Assembly: GCA_016707685.1 (NCBI GenBank)
Contig: JADJHE010000008.1
Location: 31,300 to 95,299, forward strand
Source: Bacteroidota bacterium
GTDB taxonomy: Bacteria > Bacteroidota > Bacteroidia > 2-12-FULL-35-15
DNA length: 64,000 nt
Direction of reading: 5' to 3'
The number at the start of each line of letters is the position of its first letter. The stretch's first letter is position 1. The notes under the pieces were generated by a model. It ran no database searches and was not told the DNA's origin. It worked only from the letters and a program-made list of their open reading frames with translations. The translations under genes were made by a program, and so were the position numbers. Below are positions 4,345-19,711 of the stretch, piece after piece.

Positions 4345-7300
4345 TTGAAACAACTATTGAAAATAAAAATAAAAAACATTGCAACAATTGTTGCAATGTT
4401 TTTTTGTTTTCAATTAAGCGCTCAACAAATTAAATTTAATAATATTTCTATTCTGCAAGGACTCTCGCAAAGCACTGTCAATTGTATTCTTCAGGATAAG
4501 AGTGGGTTTATGTGGATTGGCACGCAAGATGGCTTGAACAAATATGATGGCTATACATTCAAATATTATAAACACCTGCCATCCCAACAAAATTCTATTT
4601 CCGATAACTTTATCCAAGCATTGTGTGAAGACAAAAATGGAAACATTTGGATAGGAACTTATGGTGGAGGATTGGATAAATTTAATCCCGTATCTGGAAC
4701 ATTCACATCCTATAAAAATGATAGCAGCAACAAGCAATCGCTAAGCAACAATGTGATAATGAGCATTGCTTGTGACAATAAAAACAACTTGTGGGTTGGG
4801 ACACAAAATGGCCTAAACTATTTTGACACGAGAACAGGGATTGTTGAACGTTTTCAGTATTCAAACAACAATAAACAAAGTATTAGTAGTAACAAAATTA
4901 GTTGTGTTTACATCGATAAAAAAGAACGCGTGTGGGTTGGAACAGCAGATGCAGGCTTTAATTTGTTTGATTCGGATAGAAAACTAATTGCTAAATTTTT
5001 AAACAATCCCAACGATTTAAACTCGGTTGCGAAAAATGTAATTAAAACAATTGTTGAAGATCATAATGGTTCAATTTGGGTGGGTACAGGTGGTGCAGGA
5101 GTTGATTGTTTTAATCCAATCAATTTCAGATTTGAACATTTTCAGAAAGATGAAAAAAATAAAAATACTTTGTCTAGTAATGATGTATGGGTTGTATTTG
5201 AAGATGCCGATTACAATATGTGGTTTGGAACCTATGGCGATGGTCTTTGTAAATATAATACCAAAGAAAAAATATTTAGTCAGTATAAAAACAACGCATC
5301 ACTTTCTGGTTCTTTGAGCAACAACATTGTTATGTGTGCTTTTCAGGACTACAGAGGATTATTTTGGGTTGGAACCTTGGGTGGTGGAGTAGACGTGTTT
5401 GATCCCGTTAAGAAAGGTTTTTTACATTTTAAACATCGACAAGAAGATGAAAATGCATTAAGCGAAAACATGGTGATGTGTTTTTATGAAGATAAAAATA
5501 AAGTCATTTGGATTGGTACGTATGGTGGCGGCTTAAATTTATTTGATCCTAAAACGGAAGCATTTAAAAAATATGTTCACGATGACAAAAACAATAAATC
5601 GATTAGTTCAAACATAATTCGAAGTGTTTTTCGTGATTCGAAAAACAATTTGTGGATAGGGACTTACGGTGGCGGCTTAAATTTATTTAATGAGCAAACA
5701 CAAACATTTACAGCCTACAAACACGAGGATAAAAATTCAACAACAATCAGTAGTGATGATGTTTGGTGTATAAAGGAAGATGCAGATGGAAACCTTTGGT
5801 TGGGAACATGGGGTGGCGGCTTAAATAAGTTTAATGTTCAAACAAAAGAGTTTACTAGTTATAAAAACAATGCATCGAATTTAAATTCGATTAGCAATGA
5901 TCGAGTGATTTCATTGTTAGTTGACAAAGAAGAGAACCTTTGGGTTGGCACAAATGGTGGCGGACTAAATTTATACAACAAAGCAACAAATGCGTTTATA
6001 AAATTTAGATACACAGAAACCGATTCTCAATCAATTTCAAGTGATAGAATTCGATGCATTATTCAAGACAAAGAAAACAATATATGGATAGGAACTGATG
6101 GTGGTGGGTTTAATAAGTATGATTTGAAAACAAAAAAATTCACTCGTTACTCTGAAAAACAAGGGCTGTGCAACAATGTAGTATACGGAATTGTAGAAGA
6201 TGAATATGGTAATATTTGGTTAAGCACAAATGGTGGGGTATCAAAATTTAATAGCAAGAAAAATAATTTTCAAAACTTTGATGTTCGAGATGGCTTGCAG
6301 AGCAATGAGTTTAATCAGGGAGCGTATTTAAAAACAAAAGAAGGTAAAATATATTTTGGAGGCGTAAACGGCTTTAATTCCTTTGAACCATCTTCGATTC
6401 GAAAGAATCCAAATCGACCACCCGTTTATATCACTTCTATTAAATTGTTTAATAACGAAATTACGAAGGATACCGCATCGAGTTATATTAAGTCGCTTGA
6501 CTTAAATTATTCCGACAATTTTTTATCCTTTGAATTTGCAGCGCTTGATTATACAGCACCTGAAAAAAATCAGTATGCATGTAAAATGGAAGGCTTTGAT
6601 AAAGATTGGATAAGCCTTGGTGGCAGACGATTTATAAGTTATACCAATCTTGATCCAGGAAAATATATTTTTAGAGTAAAGGGATCGAATAATGATGGTG
6701 TTTGGAATGAGCAAGGTAATTACATTGTTATTTACATTGCTCCTCCATTTTGGAAAACGTACTGGTTTTATGTTAGTGTGATTTTTTTAATGGCGCTGTT
6801 GGTTTACATCTATATTCGTGTACGAACAAAAAAGCTACAACGCGATAAAGAAGAGCTGGAGCGTGAGGTAAAATCACGTACATCGGAAGTTGTTCTCCAA
6901 AAGGATATTATTGAACGCAAGAACAAAGACATTACCGACAGTATTACGTATGCGCAACGAATTCAGCAAGCAATATTACCAACCGAACAGGTTGTAAAAA
7001 AGTTTTTTCCAAATTCGTTTGTATTGTATAAGCCAAAAGATATTGTAAGTGGCGATTTTTATTGGATGGAGCAGGTGGGGTCACAAAATTTTGTTGCGGC
7101 AGTAGATTGTACTGGTCATGGTGTTCCAGGAGCTTTCATGAGTATTGTAGGATACAACTTACTAAATCAAGCGGTGAATGAACGGGGAATTTATGAGCCG
7201 GCAAAAATTTTGGATGAAATGAACAATGGCTTATCAAAACAGTTGCGTCAACAAGGAGACTCTATGACAGTGCGCGATGGAATGGATTTGTCTCTTTGTT

Positions 7301-14820: not shown

Positions 14821-14971
14821 TGCTTAAATTTTGTGATACAAAAATAGCTTAGCTGCGCAAAAAGTGAGTGATGCAAAAATTAAGGATGTATGAACATTGT
14901 GTTAAGCAATGTAAAGTTTATGTTAATGAAAAATATACCTTATCTTCGTCTAAAATAAATTATAGTATACT

Positions 14972-16190
14972 TTGAAATTCAACGATTTTAATTTTGAGTC
15001 CAGCTTACAAGAAGGGCTTGATTCAATGGGCTTTGAAAACCCAACACCAATTCAGGAGCAAGCAATCCCAATTATATTAAGCAACAAAGACCTTATTGGT
15101 TGTGCGCAAACAGGAACGGGTAAAACAGCAGCATTCTTATTGCCTATTTTAAATAAGCTTACCGCTAATCCAACCGATTTAACCAATACGCTTATTATTG
15201 TACCAACACGTGAGTTGGCTTTACAAATAGATCATGCATTGCAAGGCTTCGTATTTTACATCGGTGAGCTCATTAGCCATTTATGGAGGTAGCGATGGAA
15301 GTGTGTTTGAACAAGAGAAAAAAGCATTAACACAAGGTGCCAATGTAATTATAGCAACACCAGGCCGATTGATGGCCCATTTAAACATGGGTTATGTGAA
15401 GCTGGATAACCTGCAACATTTAATATTGGACAGACTTGATCGTATGTTGGACATGGGCTTTGTGGATGACATTATTAAAATAACTACCTATTTGCCAAAA
15501 CCGACAAACATTGATGTTTTCGGCAACCATGGCACCACGCATTCGCACCTAGCAACCAAGTTGTTGAATGAGCCAGAACAAATTACCATATCACTTTCGA
15601 AACCTGCCGAAGGAGTGGTACAAGGAGCATATTTGGTGTACGATACACAAAAGAACAATTTGATAAAATCGCTTTTATCAGGCAAAGAAAAAGAGTTGAG
15701 TAGTGTCATCATCTTTTTATCGACTAAGATAAAGTAAAAAGAACTGGAACGCGATTTACAAAAGCAGGATTAAAAGCAAAAGCAATTCATTCCGATTTAG
15801 AACAAGGTGAAGCGCGAAGAAGTATTGCGAAACTTTAGAAGTAAACAATTACAAATATTGGTTGCAACCGATATTTTATCGAGAGGAATAGATATTGAAG
15901 ACATTGGATTGGTAATCAATTATGATGTGCCAGGCGATGCTGCGATTATATTCACCGTATTGGACGAACTGCACGCGCTGCTTCAACAGGTGTTGCATTA
16001 ACCTTTATTAATGAGTACGACCAACAAAAATTTGCACAAATAGAAACCTTGATTGCGGCAGAAGTAAAAAAATTACCATTGCCCGAAGGCTTTCAACCAG
16101 GCCCTGTGTATGCTCCCGAAGTAAAAGTGAAAAAACCTTTTGTAAAAGGTAAAAAGCCATTCAGAAAACCAAGACCACAAGGGAAGTAGC
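14972..16190 (+). pseudogene. decayed DEAD-box ATP-dependent RNA helicase
   Basis: Q-motif and motif I (AQTGTGKTAAF) and Ia (PTRELA) are intact. The DEAD box is replaced by DRLD at 15429-15440. At least four frame changes occur, near 15240, 15735, 15810 and 15960. The C-terminal HRTGRAGATG-like motif VI lies in yet another frame. Confidence 0.75.
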
Positions 16191-16240
16191 AGAATTTTTA
16201 TTGGGATTGCTTTATGTTTTCTGAAATCAATATTTTGTAA

Positions 16241-16640
16241 TTGTCATTTTTTCTTGATATAATATGTGTATGTTTTAGGAGAGTTCGGTGACTCTTCTAA
16301 TTCAACATAAAACCTTTTGCTGTCAAGCCATTTAATATTAAACGTTCTAGAGCCCTTTGAAATGTTTTGTTGATCGTTCCAATTAAGAATAAGGTTATTT
16401 TCCACTAATTTAAATTTTCCACTCCATTTTAATCTATCTTTTTCTGCATAAAAGTTCCAGATTTATCGAAACGATAGGTTAAATAACCTTTACTGCAATT
16501 AAAGTTTTTGAGAAGAGCGAATCTTCACAAACAATCCATTCGCCAATAATTGATTCAATTTGGCTAATATTAATATTGTTTTGTGAGAATGTTGAACTAC
16601 TTATGATTACGAATAAGGAAATGACTAAAAGGCTGTTTTT
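16241..16640 (-). pseudogene. small secreted or lipocalin-like hypothetical gene broken by two frameshifts
   Basis: Minus-strand translation starts MGKNSLLVISLFVIISSSTFSQ (signal peptide). It continues in two other frames (..KGYLTYRFDKSGTF.., ..LKWSGKFKLVENNLILNWNDQQ..). No intact ORF of 60 aa or more exists. Confidence 0.35.
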
Positions 16641-16801
16641 ACCCATATTTATTTTAAATTAATTGATTATTGTGTTTAAAACTGTTAATTTAATTCTAAC
16701 GAAAATTTAAAAGCTAGTATGCTTCATCACCGAAACAATTTATTAAAATTTATGAAGTTGTTACAAAGTAAAAATTATTTAAGGAGCGCCCCTATCTAAT
16801 T

Positions 16802-17497
16802 TTAAATTTTGTTAAGTGGTGTATTCTTTTTCTTTCCTATTAGATAAAATTTATTGATAGTTGAATTATCTTCAATTGTTTCAAACCTGTTTTTTATCTT
16901 TTCCCATTGCGTATTGCTATATAAGTTCTCTCTTGAATATGAAGTTTGTATGTTGTTTAGAACAGATATTAAAATAATACCATTCTTATTTAACATGTTA
17001 GAGCACATTTCAATTATCGAGTCAGCTTTTTTTGATTCTATAAAGTGCAAGATATCGGATAAAATGATAAAATCAAATTTAAGTGCTTTCTCATTCTTTT
17101 TGCAAAAGTCGTATGCATCTGTATTAAAGTTTTCAAGGTTAATTGAGTCATAAAATTCTGTTTCATCAATCGGATTGAATTTGTCTTCCTCACCAGTCAA
17201 GCAGTAGCTATTTATTCTCTTAATCCAATCTGTTTTAATAACAGTTTTGTCAATTATTTTGGAATCATCTACTTCTTCCCAAAAGATTGCATATGCAGGT
17301 TTTCTATCGACAGGGGTATAACCGAAATCAACATTATTAATCCTCTTATTCTTCAATAATTCTTGAAGTTGAGTAAAGATAAAATTGCTCCCAATGTCTA
17401 AAACATTGATTCTATTATTTGAAACACGCTTATTTAATTGTTGAATTATTTTTTTCCTCATTACATCCGTTTGGCTCAGTTCATGTTGTAGATTCAT
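16802..17497 (-). CDS. class I SAM-dependent methyltransferase (putative)
   Basis: The motif-I-like INVLDIGSN is followed by an acidic and hydrophobic motif-II/III-like FDFIILSDILHF. The gene is AT-rich. Confidence 0.5.
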   Translation of the reverse strand: MNLQHELSQTDVMRKKIIQQLNKRVSNNRINVLDIGSNFIFTQLQELLKNKRINNVDFGYTPVDRKPAYAIFWEEVDDSKIIDKTVIKTDWIKRINSYCLTGEEDKFNPIDETEFYDSINLENFNTDAYDFCKKNEKALKFDFIILSDILHFIESKKADSIIEMCSNMLNKNGIILISVLNNIQTSYSRENLYSNTQWEKIKNRFETIEDNSTINKFYLIGKKKNTPLNKI

Positions 17498-17609
17498 ATT
17501 ATTACTAAATCAGTATAAGACTTCTAAGAGTTTTTGTAATATCAAAATACAAAATCAAAAAGATAAAAGTGTTTTCGTTAATAAGTGGGGTGGAAGAAAA
17601 TTAGCCATT

Positions 17610-17627
17610 GCAGGTGTTATCACCTGC
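17610..17627 (-). terminator. intercistronic hairpin GCAGGTG-TTAT-CACCTGC between the two methyltransferase genes
   Basis: Perfect 7-bp inverted repeat immediately 3' of the 17640..18395 gene. Confidence 0.3.
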
Positions 17628-17639
17628 AAAATGGTATTG

Positions 17640-18395
17640 CTACTTATTTTTTATAATCATAGCACTTCCTTGCCAATCGGGAAGCTCAATTAACGATTCC
17701 GGAATAGTACTTATAAATTCATTTATCGCTTTTGGTATTCCATCCCAATTGTGATTGTAATCGTGAATAATAATAACCCCACCTTTTGCCATACGAGGAT
17801 AGAAAAATTTTAATGCTTCAATGGTAGGTGCATATAAATCGGCATCTATGTGTGCCAATGCAAATGTTTCGTTTTCTAATCCTACCGTTGTTATTGGAAA
17901 AAATCCAGGTTTATAGATGATGGAATCGTTTCCATTGATGTACTTTTTTACTTCTTCAATACTGGTGTCGGCAAACATATTCGTTGAAAAACGATTGTCT
18001 GTTTGTTGTTCTTGTTTTAAATCATTGCTGGTAAAGCCTTCGAAGGTATCAAACAAATAAAAGGTTCTGCTTTGATCCATATAATGTATTGCTTTTGCAG
18101 TTTCTCCGCGATGTACGCCTAGCTCCGCAAAAGCGCCTTTTACATTATTTTTTTTCAATTGCTCCACCTGAAACCATAAATTATAAAAACGAACTTTATC
18201 ACGATAACTCGCTTCTAGCTTAATGAGTTGTGTGGAAACGAGTTTGTTTTTTACAGCATTTTCCCATGCATAAGGCTTGCTAATTTTATACGACCAAGTG
18301 GTTTCTAAATATTTAAAGCCTAAAAAAAGTAAAATCACAACGAGCAAAATATTTGCCGTTTGAAAAAGAGAGAAACCTAGTAAAAGAAGAATCAT
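17640..18395 (-). CDS. TylF/MycF-family (macrocin-O-methyltransferase-like) SAM-dependent O-methyltransferase with an N-terminal TM helix
   Basis: FAELGVHRGETAKAIHY and IDADLYAPT..VIIIHDY match the Methyltransf_24/TylF signature. Confidence 0.7.
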   Translation of the reverse strand: MILLLLGFSLFQTANILLVVILLFLGFKYLETTWSYKISKPYAWENAVKNKLVSTQLIKLEASYRDKVRFYNLWFQVEQLKKNNVKGAFAELGVHRGETAKAIHYMDQSRTFYLFDTFEGFTSNDLKQEQQTDNRFSTNMFADTSIEEVKKYINGNDSIIYKPGFFPITTVGLENETFALAHIDADLYAPTIEALKFFYPRMAKGGVIIIHDYNHNWDGIPKAINEFISTIPESLIELPDWQGSAMIIKNK

Positions 18396-18508
18396 GCTTG
18401 CATTTTAATGTATTCAAATATACATATTTTGCAATTGCGTTTTGTAGTTGATATTGTTACAATGGTATTAAAGAACGAAATGATTATGAAAAATAAGTGC
18501 CATCTTTA

Positions 18509-18775
18509 ATTTCGCCTCTTCGCGACTTTGTATTATCAGGGCGATTTAGCTTTAGTAAGATTGTGCTCCTCTGGAGCAGTATTGAATTTTAGCTCCATCG
18601 GAGCGTAATAGCAATGGATAATAAAATAGGAAAAAACAATTTGTATCGTAGTGAAATGTTTTAGTTTTATTTCGCCCCTACGGGGCTTTGTATTATAAAG
18701 GCAGTTTAGTTTTAGTAAGATTGTGCTCCTCTGGAGCAGTATTGAATTTTAGCTCCATCGGAGCGTAATAGCAAT
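18509..18775. repeat. tandem direct repeat: two structured units of about 107 bp, period 160 bp, with an identical 65-bp core
   Basis: The core at 18551-18615 is identical to 18711-18775. Each core holds two small hairpins, TGCTCC-TCT-GGAGCA and GCTCC-ATC-GGAGC. The 5' parts differ but each forms its own hairpin: TCGC..GCGA in unit 1 and GCCCC..GGGGC in unit 2. Confidence 0.8.
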
Positions 18776-18916
18776 AGGGAATTAAAACAGAAATTAAGCA
18801 AGCTCTAGAAGAGCGAAATGGTTAATATAATAATAAGTCGATATATAATTATGATTTGTATCAGAGTTATCGCTGACATTATTGTTGATTATAGTACCAA
18901 CAATTATTAGAGAAAG

Positions 18917-18989
18917 AAAAATTAAAATTTATTTAAGGGTTGCTTCATCCGACACACAATTAACCACAAACACTACGGACGAAGCAACC
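18917..18989 (-). terminator. strong rho-independent terminator on the minus strand
   Basis: Stem of 14 bp, GGTTGCTTCATCCG / CGGACGAAGCAACC, with one A-C mismatch. On the minus strand it is followed by TTAAATAAATTTTAATTTTT. Confidence 0.6.
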
Positions 18990-19396
18990 ACCTAAATCCT
19001 CCCTACCCCAATAGGAGTTTTATTGCAACTAATCAGCCAGTAACAACCGCTACCATTGTAATTATTAGTCCCCAGCCTTGCATAAAGTTTGATCCGCTTT
19101 TTGAATTATTGTTATTTTCCATGTTGTTTTATTTTTAATATGAATGAAATTCCTTAGAGGAATAAAAATGAATGTTCCGCGATCTAATGTTATGACCGTG
19201 GAAATAAAATAAAAACAAGAGGAATCAAATTAATAACTGACGGAAGGCAATATAATGTGGAGAGGCCTCTGAGTGGGCCATTTTATTAGAGCTGTACGCT
19301 AGCAGCGAAGTGTTCGACACAAGCGTGAAACGAGAAGCATAAACGTGAAATAATCCTTTGTTATTGGAATGGTGTTGAAAGTTGGGGCGGTAATTT

Positions 19397-19606
19397 TCAG
19401 TGTTTCGAACGCTGGTGTGTAAAATCCCTTCCGAAGAAATAAGTTCTTGTTCGGCATTCGGACCAGGGGTGTTGTGAAATAGTTCCACAAAGCACTTCAC
19501 TTTGTTTTCCATCCTTTTGATGCGTAGACACAGCATTTCCTTTGCTGTATGTTGAGAACAAAACAAACAGCGAAAGTAAAAAAGTAAAAAGGTGTTTTTT
19601 ATGCAT
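19397..19606 (-). CDS. small hypothetical secreted protein of 69 aa
   Basis: The signal peptide is MHKKHLFTFLLSLFVLFSTYSKG. The mature part has two Cys. It lies in a locally GC-richer patch. Weak. Confidence 0.2.
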   Translation of the reverse strand: MHKKHLFTFLLSLFVLFSTYSKGNAVSTHQKDGKQSEVLCGTISQHPWSECRTRTYFFGRDFTHQRSKH

Positions 19607-19711
19607 TATTTCTTTTGCAAAGATAAGAAATTTTAGGAAACTGAATTGTTATTGAGGATCGGAGTCTTGTTGGCTTTATTGTTATTGATTTGTAGCACAA
19701 AGTATTTTTGT

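What the first reader, a model, noticed from the sequence alone, without database searches (positions are those of the whole stretch)
18509..18775. Uncharacterised structured tandem repeat (2 x about 107 bp, period 160 bp) upstream of the methyltransferase operon
Two units share an identical 65-bp core, TTTAGTAAGATTGTGCTCCTCTGGAGCAGTATTGAATTTTAGCTCCATCGGAGCGTAATAGCAAT. It contains two related mini-hairpins, GCUCC-triloop-GGAGC. The diverged 5' portions each still fold into their own hairpin (TCGC/GCGA versus GCCCC/GGGGC). Structure appears preserved while sequence is not, which is the signature of a functional RNA or a protein-binding array more than of junk. On the minus strand the element lies between a strong terminator at 18917-18989 and the promoter-like TATATTTG box of the TylF-like methyltransferase. 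It could be a cis-regulatory leader, a small RNA gene or a REP-like element. It is not a CRISPR array: there are only two units and the period is too long.
Basis: seen in the sequence. Interest (0 to 1): 0.6.

Follow-up and report, generated by a model that had tools for sequence, protein, structure and literature searches.

The report
Decayed cluster of REP-like palindromic repeats
The 'structured tandem repeat' is a worn-down cluster of small hairpin-forming DNA repeats of the REP/BIME type, from a widespread repeat family that travels with an IS200-like transposase, and it is not a regulatory RNA of the neighbouring methyltransferase gene.

Summary
The repeat is real: two units with a 160-nt period, an identical 65-nt core, and four GCTCC-N3-GGAGC mini-palindromes (0.01 expected by chance). 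It is not a leader or an Rfam RNA. It consists of six or seven copies of a 26-nt module, a 13-nt mini-hairpin plus a 13-nt box ending RTAG, in alternating orientation like a BIME.

The same module builds a roughly 160-175-nt, strand-symmetric, four-hairpin element. That element is dispersed in intergenic DNA of Bacteroidota, Acidobacteriota and Verrucomicrobiota, often in tandem arrays and with several loci per genome. A covariance model of the family hits the window only here (40.6 bits, E about 1e-7). The six best hits of a module model all fall within 18553-18820.

Family elements flank IS200-like Y1 transposase genes of subclass 1.2: 4 of 120 pattern-selected loci, 7 of 38 module-selected metagenome loci, and 4 of 4 loci selected through the protein.

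The window copy is decayed and orphan, with no Y1 gene in 64 kb. It is absent from a relative with about 90% nucleotide identity that keeps the same methyltransferase promoter, and from a syntenic outgroup.

Verdict: an ordinary REP-like relic. The family's link to subclass 1.2, which a 2018 survey reported as lacking REPs, is the only mildly new point.

The parts
18505..18826 (.). Whole array: two tandem periods of 160 and 162 nt. This equals four half-units in alternating orientation (BIME-like).
   Evidence: Direct repeat D1. Full-period alignment: 132 of 162 columns identical, flanks 70%, core 100%.
18514..18526 (-). Module a: decayed mini-hairpin GCCTCTTCGCGAC. It is the unit-1 counterpart of module d.
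   Evidence: In register with module d it keeps 3 of 5 pairs. A shifted 4-bp stem folds at -2.3 kcal/mol. It is not detected by model R2.
18552..18577 (-). Module b: box TTAGTAAGATTGT plus hairpin GCTCCTCTGGAGC.
   Evidence: R2 hit at 18553-18577, minus strand, 14.4 bits.
18589..18617 (+). Module c: hairpin GCTCCATCGGAGC plus box GTAATAGCAATGG.
   Evidence: R2 hit at 18589-18612, plus strand, 14.5 bits. R1 aligns it as hairpin A and box 1.
18640..18660 (+). Probable decayed short-box module, ...GTATCGTAGTGAAATG. It is the unit-1 counterpart of module g.
   Evidence: It aligns with 18800-18820 in the full-period alignment, and AG-GAAATG is kept. This is read from the sequence and is not significant on its own.
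18661..18686 (-). Module d: ...TATTTC plus hairpin GCCCCTACGGGGC.
   Evidence: Best R2 hit of the window: 18669-18686, minus strand, 17.2 bits. R1 aligns it as box 2 and hairpin B.
18712..18737 (-). Module e: identical copy of module b.
   Evidence: R2 hit at 18713-18737, minus strand, 14.4 bits.
18749..18778 (+). Module f: hairpin GCTCCATCGGAGC plus box GTAATAGCAATAG, ending in ATAG.
   Evidence: R2 hit at 18749-18778, plus strand, 16.0 bits, full model length.
18802..18820 (+). Module g: hairpin GCTCTAGAAGAGC plus short box GAAATG.
   Evidence: R2 hit at 18802-18820, plus strand, 14.2 bits.
18551..18615 (.). Identical 65-nt core, copy 1: box, hairpin, 14 nt, hairpin, box. This is a tail-to-tail junction of two elements.
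   Evidence: Exact match. The same junction layout occurs in L138/L157, L013 and L092.
18711..18775 (.). Identical 65-nt core, copy 2.
   Evidence: Exact match.
18415..18422 (-). Context, not part of the element: the TATATTTG -7 box of the TylF-like methyltransferase gene (17640-18395, minus strand).
   Evidence: The same box and spacing are present in relative L121, which has no repeat array. Pfam TylF match, E 1.2e-23.

Best explanation
The feature is a decayed, orphan, BIME-like cluster of REP-type palindromic DNA modules.

Each module is a 13-nt mini-hairpin (5-bp stem, 3-nt loop) followed by a 13-nt box that ends in RTAG. A full-box module, a spacer of about 25 nt and a short-box module make a half-unit of about 75 nt. 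The window holds four half-units in alternating orientation, which produces the apparent 160-nt tandem repeat.

Shown here. The modules belong to a widespread family of strand-symmetric four-hairpin elements of about 160-175 nt. These elements sit in intergenic DNA, occur at several loci per genome and often form tandem arrays. They flank IS200-like Y1 (HUH) transposase genes of subclass 1.2.

Inferred. The hairpins act as single-stranded DNA structures that this transposase recognises, and probably cuts and rejoins, in trans. This follows the mechanism established for IS200/IS605 TnpA and for RAYT/REP. The elements therefore spread or are maintained as non-autonomous DNA rather than as RNA genes.

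In this window the cluster lies at the edge of a 2.7-kb segment that carries the TylF-like methyltransferase. Its copies are degenerate and it has no transposase nearby. It is dispensable for the methyltransferase promoter. Any present-day effect, such as acting as a transcription barrier, stabilising an RNA 3' end or promoting recombination, would be incidental.
For: Family and homology:
Fifty-nine of them show one shared architecture.
- Family model R1 hits the 64-kb window only at 18576-18701: 40.6 and 37.8 bits on the two strands, E about 1e-7.
- Module model R2 run with filters off: the six best hits of the whole window all lie in 18553-18820, in orientations -,+,-,-,+,+. R2 found no hit at E<=1 in 54.7 kb of related loci.
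- The same junction layout occurs in L138 and L157.

DNA-level palindromy:
- All four helices covary: 94% of cells paired, 27 pairs changed on both sides, 0 of 500 shuffles reach this.
- Almost no pair changed on one side only, that is, G-U pairs are nearly absent.
- True members score 100-135 bits on both strands.

Dispersed, intergenic, multi-copy:
- Flanks outside the terminal hairpins are unrelated between copies.
- Elements are wedged between ORFs: 32 co-directional, 14 convergent and 6 divergent gene pairs.
- At least 4 loci lie on one Larkinella chromosome and at least 4 in one Blastocatellia MAG.
- Tandem arrays occur in L092, L007, L065 and L112.

Transposase link:
- PF01797 is found among the nearest ORFs, best E 5.5e-29. 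tblastn finds it in 4 of 120 loci.
- The gene is flanked on both sides in L092 and L108.
- All 4 independently chosen homologue loci have R1 hits within 500 nt of the gene.
- 7 of 38 loci selected only through the module pattern carry the gene within 250 nt.
- The proteins carry the motifs DH[IV]H, WQ and Y---Q--HH at about 150 aa, matching subclass 1.2 of PMC6006769.

Dispensability:
- The array is absent from relative L121, which keeps the same promoter.
- It is absent from the syntenic outgroup L175.
Against: - The window copy scores far below full family members (40 versus 100-135 bits). R1 has to delete the central hairpin to align it. Each single module hit is only marginal (E 0.04-0.23).
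- No Y1 gene lies in the 64-kb window, and there is no second cluster. Copy number in the source genome is unknown.
- A metagenome scan with a module pattern derived from the window did not recover this locus or near-identical copies.
- The 65-nt core is 100% identical while its flanks are 70% identical (P about 7e-11 under uniform divergence). Passive decay does not explain this. It needs gene conversion, a recent copying event or selection.
- The RTAG tag lies 9 nt 3' of the hairpin, not directly 5' of it as in classical REPs.
- The transposases score as IS200, not as RAYT, in NCBIfam.
- No binding, cleavage or transposition has been shown for this family.
Confidence: 0.78

Rival explanations
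1. Tandem small-RNA genes or another structured RNA. Each 160-nt unit would be transcribed and fold into hairpins that act in trans or bind a protein.
For: Hairpins are predicted. Minus-strand units fold better than shuffles, z -3.2 to -3.8. The core is perfectly conserved between the units. The family is absent from Rfam, so an undescribed RNA cannot be excluded from a database search alone.
Against: - No Rfam match at gathering threshold.
- No promoter or terminator pattern frames the units. The only terminator-like call is the module hairpin itself.
- The family is strand-symmetric and almost free of G-U pairs.
- The spacers between modules are not conserved among copies within one genome.
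- Elements occur in every orientation relative to neighbouring genes.
- The array is missing at orthologous loci in L121 and L175.
- The supposed compensatory hairpin in unit 1 is decay.
Confidence: 0.07
2. A cis-regulatory element of the TylF-like methyltransferase operon: either a 5' leader or an operator array bound by a dimeric regulator at the GCTCC-N3-GGAGC palindromes.
For: It lies 85-400 nt upstream of the methyltransferase start region. It has four identical-type palindromes at regular spacing.
Against: - It lies upstream of the -7 box, so it is not in the 5' UTR.
- Relative L121 has the same promoter box and a 96% identical protein only 51 nt after the upstream gene, with no array.
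- Other TylF homologue loci lack modules.
- In the family the stem sequence covaries (GCTCC, GCGCC, GTCCC, GCCCC, ATCCC). This fits a hairpin, not a fixed double-stranded operator.
- Family elements sit next to unrelated genes: 165 Pfam families among 122 neighbouring ORFs.
Confidence: 0.04
3. The family is an active non-autonomous transposon, a MITE- or PATE-like deletion derivative of an IS200-like element whose ends are the half-units. On this view it is not a domesticated REP/RAYT-type system. The window's identical 65-nt core would be a right-end/left-end junction left by recent activity.
For: - In several loci the Y1 gene sits between a plus-oriented half-unit, 4-58 nt before its ATG, and a minus-oriented module at or just after its stop. 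The 160-nt element therefore looks like that unit with the gene deleted.
- NCBIfam calls the protein IS200, not RAYT.
- Contigs carrying the gene are often very short, as expected for repeats.
- The core runs from box end to box end and is 65/65 identical.
Against: - PMC6006769 reports subclass 1.2 at low copy number (1.7 per genome, 36% identity between copies), unlike proliferating insertion sequences.
- No target-site duplication or conserved target is visible at element ends.
- Spacers differ between copies in one genome, unlike young MITEs.
- In L092 a complete four-hairpin element, not a half-unit, precedes the gene.
Confidence: 0.3
4. A chance local tandem duplication of AT-rich spacer DNA that happens to contain short palindromes, unrelated to any family.
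For: There are only two units. No other copy exists in 64 kb.
Against: - R1 E-value of about 1e-7.
- The six top R2 hits of 128 kb searched fall within 270 nt, in the family's orientation pattern.
- An identical hairpin with a near-identical box occurs in L138: GCTCCATCGGAGC followed by ATAATAGTAATAG.
- Four palindromes are found against 0.01 expected.
Confidence: 0.03

Closest known systems
REP / BIME elements with RAYT (TnpA_REP) transposases of Enterobacteria, Pseudomonas and Stenotrophomonas (REPtrons, REPINs)
   Same: Both are short extragenic palindromic modules that are multi-copy and dispersed. Both cluster with regular spacing and alternating orientation. Both have a conserved tetranucleotide ending in TAG. 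A single HUH/Y1 transposase gene is flanked by the repeats. The stems covary with lineage.
   Different: Here the tag RTAG lies 9 nt 3' of a very small hairpin (5 bp, triloop), rather than GTAG directly 5' of a longer palindrome. Modules are organised in two-module half-units of about 75 nt. The transposase is IS200-like subclass 1.2: NCBIfam IS200 62.7-83.5 bits against a cut-off of 55, and RAYT model 28-38 bits against a cut-off of 80. The hosts are Bacteroidota, Acidobacteriota and Verrucomicrobiota.
TIRtrons / TIRYT (Di Nocera et al. 2013, PMC3733652)
   Same: These are Y1 transposase genes flanked by long inverted repeats, some double-palindromic. Copies form moderately abundant families arranged as dimers or clusters. 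An Acidobacteria group is described.
   Different: I could not compare sequences, because the figures are not held. The shared TIR motif given there (GGGGWSAS) is not the module described here. Whether any published TIR family is this one is unknown.
IS200/IS605 insertion sequences and their gene-less derivatives (PATEs)
   Same: The transposase is closest to IS200 TnpA. Both have subterminal hairpins. In several loci the 160-nt element looks like the gene-bearing unit with the gene removed.
   Different: IS200/IS605 ends are asymmetric and strand-specific and have no inverted repeats. Here the two ends are inverted copies and the element is strand-symmetric. Subclass 1.2 is reported as low-copy and without typical IS200 end structures.
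Integron attC sites / cassette arrays
   Same: Both are imperfect palindromes with a conserved outer part and a variable centre. Both act as single-stranded hairpins. Some family arrays alternate with small ORFs (L065).
   Different: There is no R''/R' consensus (RYYYAAC / GTTRRRY). No integrase was seen. The associated enzyme is a Y1 HUH transposase, not a tyrosine recombinase. This was considered from memory and rejected on sequence.

Membership tests
REP/BIME (REPtron) systems | Short imperfect palindromic modules of 20-40 bp | tested here: met
   The module is 26 nt: a 13-nt hairpin plus a 13-nt box. There are four exact GCTCC-N3-GGAGC palindromes. R2 finds six modules.
REP/BIME (REPtron) systems | Conserved tetranucleotide tag (GTAG or CGTC) at the foot of the palindrome | tested here: inconclusive
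   T, A and G of the final RTAG are invariant in 105 family modules. However, the tag lies 9 nt 3' of the hairpin. In the window it reads ATAG in module f, ATGG in module c and TTAG (read on the plus strand) in modules b and e.
REP/BIME (REPtron) systems | Extragenic location | tested here: met
   The window array lies in an intergenic region. Family elements are wedged between ORFs.
REP/BIME (REPtron) systems | Clusters with regularly spaced modules in alternating orientation (BIME) | tested here: met
   Orientations are -,+,-,-,+,+ over 18553-18820 with a 160-nt period.
REP/BIME (REPtron) systems | Many dispersed copies in the same genome | not testable with these tools
   For the family there are lower bounds only: at least 4 loci on one Larkinella chromosome and at least 4 in one Blastocatellia MAG, from a truncated scan. 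For the source genome there is one cluster in 64 kb and none in 20 kb of the closest relative. The genome itself could not be scanned.
REP/BIME (REPtron) systems | Cognate Y1 transposase gene flanked by the repeats | tested here: met
   Met for the family: L092 and L108 flanked on both sides; L053 and L061; 4 of 4 homologue loci; 7 of 38 module-selected loci. Not met for the window: no Y1 gene in 64 kb.
REP/BIME (REPtron) systems | The transposase belongs to the RAYT class | tested here: not met
   NF047646 REP_Tyr_transpos scores 28.2 and 38.2 bits against a cut-off of 80. NF033573 IS200 scores 62.7 and 83.5 bits against a cut-off of 55. The motifs fit subclass 1.2 of PMC6006769.
Four-hairpin element family defined here (model R1, alignment A2) | Significant match to the family covariance model | tested here: met
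   40.6 and 37.8 bits, E about 1e-7, the only hit in the window. It is a partial match: full members score 100-135 bits.
Four-hairpin element family defined here (model R1, alignment A2) | Central long hairpin whose two GCTCC halves have complementary loops | tested here: not met
   In the family, the loop columns 79-81 and 114-116 covary. The window's two GCTCC hairpins have loops TCT and ATC, which are not complementary. They correspond to the junction of hairpin B and hairpin A. The centre of the one complete element is half decayed.
Structured non-coding RNA (Rfam family or new sRNA) | Match to a curated RNA family | tested here: not met
   No match at gathering score in the window or in 27 family loci. 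Only sub-threshold hits were found, for example CRISPR-DR34 at 20.6 bits against 35.
Structured non-coding RNA (Rfam family or new sRNA) | Strand-specific structure with G-U tolerance, and conservation at orthologous loci | tested here: not met
   Scores are equal on both strands. There are almost no one-sided changes in pairs. The array is absent from L121 and L175.
Structured non-coding RNA (Rfam family or new sRNA) | A discrete transcript | not testable with these tools
   No expression data are available.
5' leader or riboswitch of the TylF-like methyltransferase | Lies between the promoter and the start codon, and is conserved with the gene | tested here: not met
   The array (18505-18826) lies upstream of the -7 box at 18415-18422. 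Relative L121 keeps the box and the gene without the array.
CRISPR array | At least 3 short repeats (24-48 nt) separated by unique spacers of similar length | tested here: not met
   There are two 160-nt periods. The modules are in inverted orientation. The Rfam CRISPR-DR34 hit is sub-threshold.
MITE | Terminal inverted repeats plus a target-site duplication | tested here: inconclusive
   The inverted terminal half-units are present. No duplication or common target is visible at the borders of seven aligned copies. The window copies are too decayed to judge.

The most novel reading that the evidence does not exclude
The strand-symmetric four-hairpin elements of about 160-175 nt may be the so far unrecognised cognate repeats of the IS200-like TnpA_Y1 subclass 1.2. 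The 2018 survey (PMC6006769) lists this subclass as low-copy with no REP. Together they would form a REP/RAYT-like or TIRtron-like system spanning Bacteroidota, Acidobacteriota and Verrucomicrobiota. The window's perfectly identical 65-nt core (box, hairpin, 14 nt, hairpin, box, which is the layout of a right-end/left-end junction) would then be a recent product of that enzyme, or of conversion it promotes, rather than passive duplication.
Probability: 0.35. Interest if true: 0.5.

Novelty: new member of a known kind. Interest (0 to 1): 0.3.

Why it matters
For this window it matters little. It removes a candidate regulatory RNA, and it marks 18.4-19.7 kb as a decaying, indel-prone junction next to an acquired methyltransferase segment.

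More widely, the work yields a usable model (R1 and R2) of an abundant intergenic repeat. That repeat is in neither Rfam nor the literature I could search. It will confuse searches for sRNAs, terminators and CRISPR arrays in Bacteroidota, Acidobacteriota and Verrucomicrobiota, and it probably breaks metagenome assemblies.

The work also links the repeat to a Y1 transposase subclass for which no DNA substrate had been reported. That makes the function of this subclass directly testable with hairpin oligonucleotides.

Tried and rejected
- Rfam: nothing at gathering threshold on the window or on 27 family loci. At permissive E-values there were only chance-level partial hits, to CRISPR-DR34 and to the Acido-Lenti-1 hairpin.
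- tRNA/tmRNA scan: none.
- Sigma-70 promoter and terminator scan: not above shuffles. The only terminator call in the array is a module hairpin.
- Exact look-up of the window's methyltransferase: not on record.
- First regular-expression search for HUH/Y motifs: missed the transposases because it assumed the RAYT-type Y motif. The Pfam scan of neighbouring ORFs found them.
- Literature search for the hairpin sequence: 0 papers.
- Plasmid and phage BLAST of the 1272-nt segment: no match.
- Metagenome scan with a window-derived module pattern: did not recover the window locus or close copies, so copy number in the source lineage stays unknown.
- More distant TylF homologue loci (L123, L126, L173, L174): not syntenic, so useless for polarity. 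Polarity came from the syntenic locus L175, reached through the frameshifted ORF.
- integron attC: no R'/R'' consensus.
- Type I toxin-antitoxin for the small ORF: not pursued.
- Double-stranded operator array: rejected because the stems covary.
- 69-aa ORF on its own: no homologue, because it is only the N-terminal part of a frameshifted gene.
Full report
**1. Observation**

The repeat exists as described. The repeat finder gives two copies, 18505-18633 and 18665-18793, 160 nt apart and 87% identical. The 65-nt core occurs exactly twice, with none in shuffles. GCTCC-N3-GGAGC occurs four times against 0.01 expected.

An alignment over the whole period shows that the duplication is 160/162 nt long (18505-18664 versus 18665-18826). 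The core is 65/65 identical but the flanks are only 70% identical, which is very unlikely under uniform divergence (P about 7e-11).

The claimed compensatory 5' hairpin does not hold. Unit 2 has a clean GCCCC-TAC-GGGGC stem. Unit 1 keeps 3 of 5 pairs in that register, and its TCGC/GCGA stem is a shifted 4-bp alternative (-2.3 versus -4.8 kcal/mol as DNA).

**2. Not a known RNA, tRNA or CRISPR**

Rfam gives nothing at gathering score in the window. There are only chance-level partial hits at permissive E-values. There are no tRNAs. Promoter-like and terminator-like sites are not enriched.

**3. A widespread family**

Most were Bacteroidota (Larkinella, Flavobacterium, Spirosoma, Dyadobacter, Chitinophagaceae), Acidobacteriota (Blastocatellia, Pyrinomonadaceae) and Verrucomicrobiota.

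Fifty-nine hits share one architecture of about 160-175 nt:
- hairpin A;
- box 1, N5-TGTTTATAG;
- about 25 variable nt;
- a long central hairpin, GCTCC-N3-GGAGC-G-NNAT ... ATNN-C-GCTCC-N3'-GGAGC;
- about 25 variable nt;
- box 2, CTATAAACA-N5;
- hairpin B.

All four helices covary: 94% of cells paired, 27 pairs with changes on both sides, 0 of 500 shuffles as high, and slid controls at 35-45% paired. Almost no pair changed on one side only, so G-U pairs are nearly absent.

True members score 100-135 bits on both strands with the covariance model R1. Both properties point to DNA-level palindromy rather than a strand-specific RNA.

Copies within one genome share the modules, but not the spacers or the flanks outside the terminal hairpins.

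Elements are wedged between ORFs in all gene orientations: 32 co-directional, 14 convergent, 6 divergent. Several loci per genome are seen even in the truncated scan, with four on one Larkinella chromosome and four in one Blastocatellia MAG.

Tandem arrays are common: a 165-nt period in L092, long and short forms alternating in L007, periods of 390-430 nt with a small ORF in L065, and 25-nt arrays of the bare module in L113, L053 and L161. The family is not in Rfam. The hairpin sequence appears in no searchable paper.

**4. The window array is a decayed member**

R1 hits the 64-kb window only at 18576-18701 (40.6 and 37.8 bits, E about 1e-7). It aligns GCTCCATCGGAGC+GTAAT.. as hairpin A and box 1, and ..TATTTC+GCCCCTACGGGGC as box 2 and hairpin B, with the centre deleted.

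A 30-position model of the single module (R2) was built from 105 family modules and run without filters. Its six best hits on both strands of the window are:

| Module | Strand | Coordinates |
|---|---|---|
| b | - | 18553-18577 |
| c | + | 18589-18612 |
| d | - | 18669-18686 |
| e | - | 18713-18737 |
| f | + | 18749-18778 |
| g | + | 18802-18820 |

Each scores 14-17 bits. The next hit elsewhere scores 11.6 bits. R2 finds nothing at E<=1 in 54.7 kb of related loci.

Read against the family, the array is four half-units in alternating orientation. A half-unit is a full-box module, about 25 nt, and a short-box module. The array therefore comprises the right half of one element, one complete element (18589-18737, with its left central module decayed) and the left half of a third.

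The same junction with the same flanking hairpins occurs in metagenome contigs L138 and L157. One of its hairpins there is identical (GCTCCATCGGAGC) and its box differs at 2 of 13 positions.

**5. Link to a Y1 transposase**

Pfam on the 122 ORFs nearest to family elements found PF01797 (Y1_Tnp) three times, best E 5.5e-29. tblastn raised this to 4 of 120 loci: L053, L061, L092 and L108.

In L092 and L108 the gene has family elements on both sides. In L092 and L053 a module abuts the stop codon.

Reverse test: four homologues were chosen only by protein similarity and contig length (L127, L128, L130, L132). All four have R1 hits within 500 nt of the gene.

Independent test: of 38 metagenome loci retrieved with a module-only pattern, seven carry the gene within 250 nt. 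Typically a plus-oriented module or half-unit lies 4-58 nt before the ATG, and minus-oriented modules lie after the stop.

The proteins are about 150 aa with the motifs DH[IV]H, WQ and Y---Q--HH. This is the signature of TnpA_Y1 subclass 1.2 in PMC6006769. That survey describes the subclass as low-copy, mostly in Cyanobacteria and Bacteroidetes, generally without IS200-type end structures, and lists 'REP: no'.

NCBIfam places the proteins in the IS200 model above its cut-off and below the cut-off of the RAYT model. PMC3733652 describes a comparable kind, 'TIRtrons': Y1 genes flanked by long, sometimes double-palindromic inverted repeats that also occur as dimers and clusters. I could not check whether any of them is this family.

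**6. Locus history**

The organism is a Cyclobacteriaceae-like member of Cytophagales, judged from the names that sources give to the methyltransferase homologues.

A relative with about 90% nucleotide identity (L121, identical to L122) is collinear, except that window 18436-19707 and 16190-17639 are missing. There the TylF-like methyltransferase starts 51 nt after the AHSA1-like gene, behind the same TATATTTG box.

The 113-aa ORF in the extra segment has one clear homologue, P0241 (127 aa, E 1.4e-15). P0241 equals the window's 69-aa ORF N-terminus joined to the 113-aa ORF C-terminus, so the window gene is frameshifted.

The P0241 locus (L175) is a syntenic outgroup: ABC transporter, TauE, three further genes, the 127-aa gene, a 39-aa small ORF, a conserved hairpin, a terminator, then the DEAD-box helicase gene on the opposite strand. 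Window 19634-18930 aligns with it at 72% identity. Window 18929-16189 is absent from it; that stretch holds the repeat cluster, the TylF-like gene and a second methyltransferase.

The small-gene cassette is therefore ancestral, and L121 lost it together with the repeat cluster, if it ever had the cluster. The cluster sits at the edge of the methyltransferase-bearing segment. R1 and R2 find nothing in L121, L123, L126, L174 or L175. The cluster is dispensable for the methyltransferase.

**7. Mechanism**

Shown:
- the module anatomy;
- family membership;
- DNA-level symmetry;
- intergenic, multi-copy, array-forming distribution;
- physical association with subclass-1.2 Y1 genes;
- absence from orthologous loci.

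Inferred from established knowledge of IS200/IS605 TnpA and of RAYT/REP: the mini-hairpins and adjacent boxes are single-stranded DNA recognition and cleavage sites for the Y1 enzyme, which copies or maintains them in trans.

Open questions:
- Is the family a domesticated REP-like system or a MITE/PATE-like parasite of an IS200-like unit?
- Where does the enzyme cut?
- Why is the window's 65-nt junction perfectly homogenised while its flanks have diverged?

**8. Rivals**

An sRNA gene (about 0.07) and a leader or operator of the methyltransferase (about 0.04) are disfavoured by strand symmetry, the lack of G-U pairs, unconserved spacers, unrelated neighbouring genes, position upstream of the promoter, and absence in L121 and L175. 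A chance duplication (about 0.03) is excluded by the R1 and R2 statistics.

**9. Verdict**

This is an ordinary REP/BIME-like relic: a new member of a known kind. Interest is 0.3.

The side result may be new and is directly testable. A four-hairpin repeat family appears to be cognate to TnpA_Y1 subclass 1.2. I put the probability at about 0.35 that this association is both real and undescribed.

**Limits**
- The source genome could not be scanned.
- E-values from the shortened model calibration are rough.
- The family alignment was seeded with a pattern that fixes the central GCTCC stems.
- The four reverse-test loci are all acidobacterial and close homologues of one another.

Noticed in passing
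window 19225-19606 (minus strand): Frameshifted gene for a small secreted protein. The 69-aa ORF (signal-peptide-like N-terminus, TATCTTTG box upstream) and the overlapping 113-aa ORF together match the intact 127-aa protein P0241, of unknown function, from the syntenic locus L175.
   Followed up: yes
window 19003-19122 (minus strand); L175 5491-5610: Small hydrophobic ORF. It is 29 aa in the window because of a TGA, and 39 aa (MENNNDQKGGSNFMQGWGLIITMVAGVTGVLVLVKLLVG) in L175. It is conserved at the same position after the 127-aa gene. Its function is unknown.
   Followed up: partly
window 18938-18989; L175 about 5622-5674: A 14-bp hairpin with a 24-nt loop directly after the small ORF. It is conserved between the window and L175, with a nearly identical loop (tgtttgtggttaa.tgt) and one compensatory stem change (GG..CC versus GC..GC). 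DNA-fold z-score is -7.6. It could be a terminator or a structured 3' element of the small-ORF transcript.
   Followed up: partly
window 14966-16189: The DEAD-box helicase gene is broken by at least six small frameshifting indels relative to the intact 407-aa gene of L121, whereas the adjacent 10-kb block has only 12 indel columns. Together with the two damaged small genes, this marks 14.9-19.7 kb as a locally decaying region around the acquired methyltransferases.
   Followed up: partly
window 16190-17639: A second strain-specific segment, absent from L121 and L175, carries a 231-aa weakly Methyltransf_23-like ORF (16802-17497). A 65-nt piece (17540-17602) resembles the sequence just downstream of TauE in L175.
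   Followed up: no
L136, L140, L141, L145-L149, L159, L160, L168, L169 (marine-sediment metagenome contigs): A different conserved non-coding element of about 200-250 nt has one family module (GCTCC-N3-GGAGC-GTAATATTAATAG) embedded. The module is followed by a CCACGGGTTTCAACCCGTGG hairpin and a GTTTTGGCGGGATTTT...AAAATCGTGACAAAAC inverted repeat. The element is apparently repeated in tandem. It has no Rfam match.
   Followed up: partly
L113 5509-5771; L053 7677-7789; L161 about 1-75: Head-to-tail arrays of the bare 25-nt module (hairpin plus box, with no spacers), up to 10 or more copies. In L053 the array directly abuts the 3' end of the Y1 transposase gene.
   Followed up: partly
L065 360-1346: Three family elements alternate with a small ORF of about 60 aa at a 390-430-nt period, giving a cassette-like tandem array in a Flavobacterium.
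   Followed up: no
window 18551-18615 and 18711-18775: Unexplained. The junction core is 65/65 identical while the rest of the period is only 70% identical. The identical stretch ends inside the terminal tetranucleotide of the box (ATAG versus ATGG). This suggests gene conversion or a recent copying event limited to the box-hairpin-hairpin-box doublet.
   Followed up: partly
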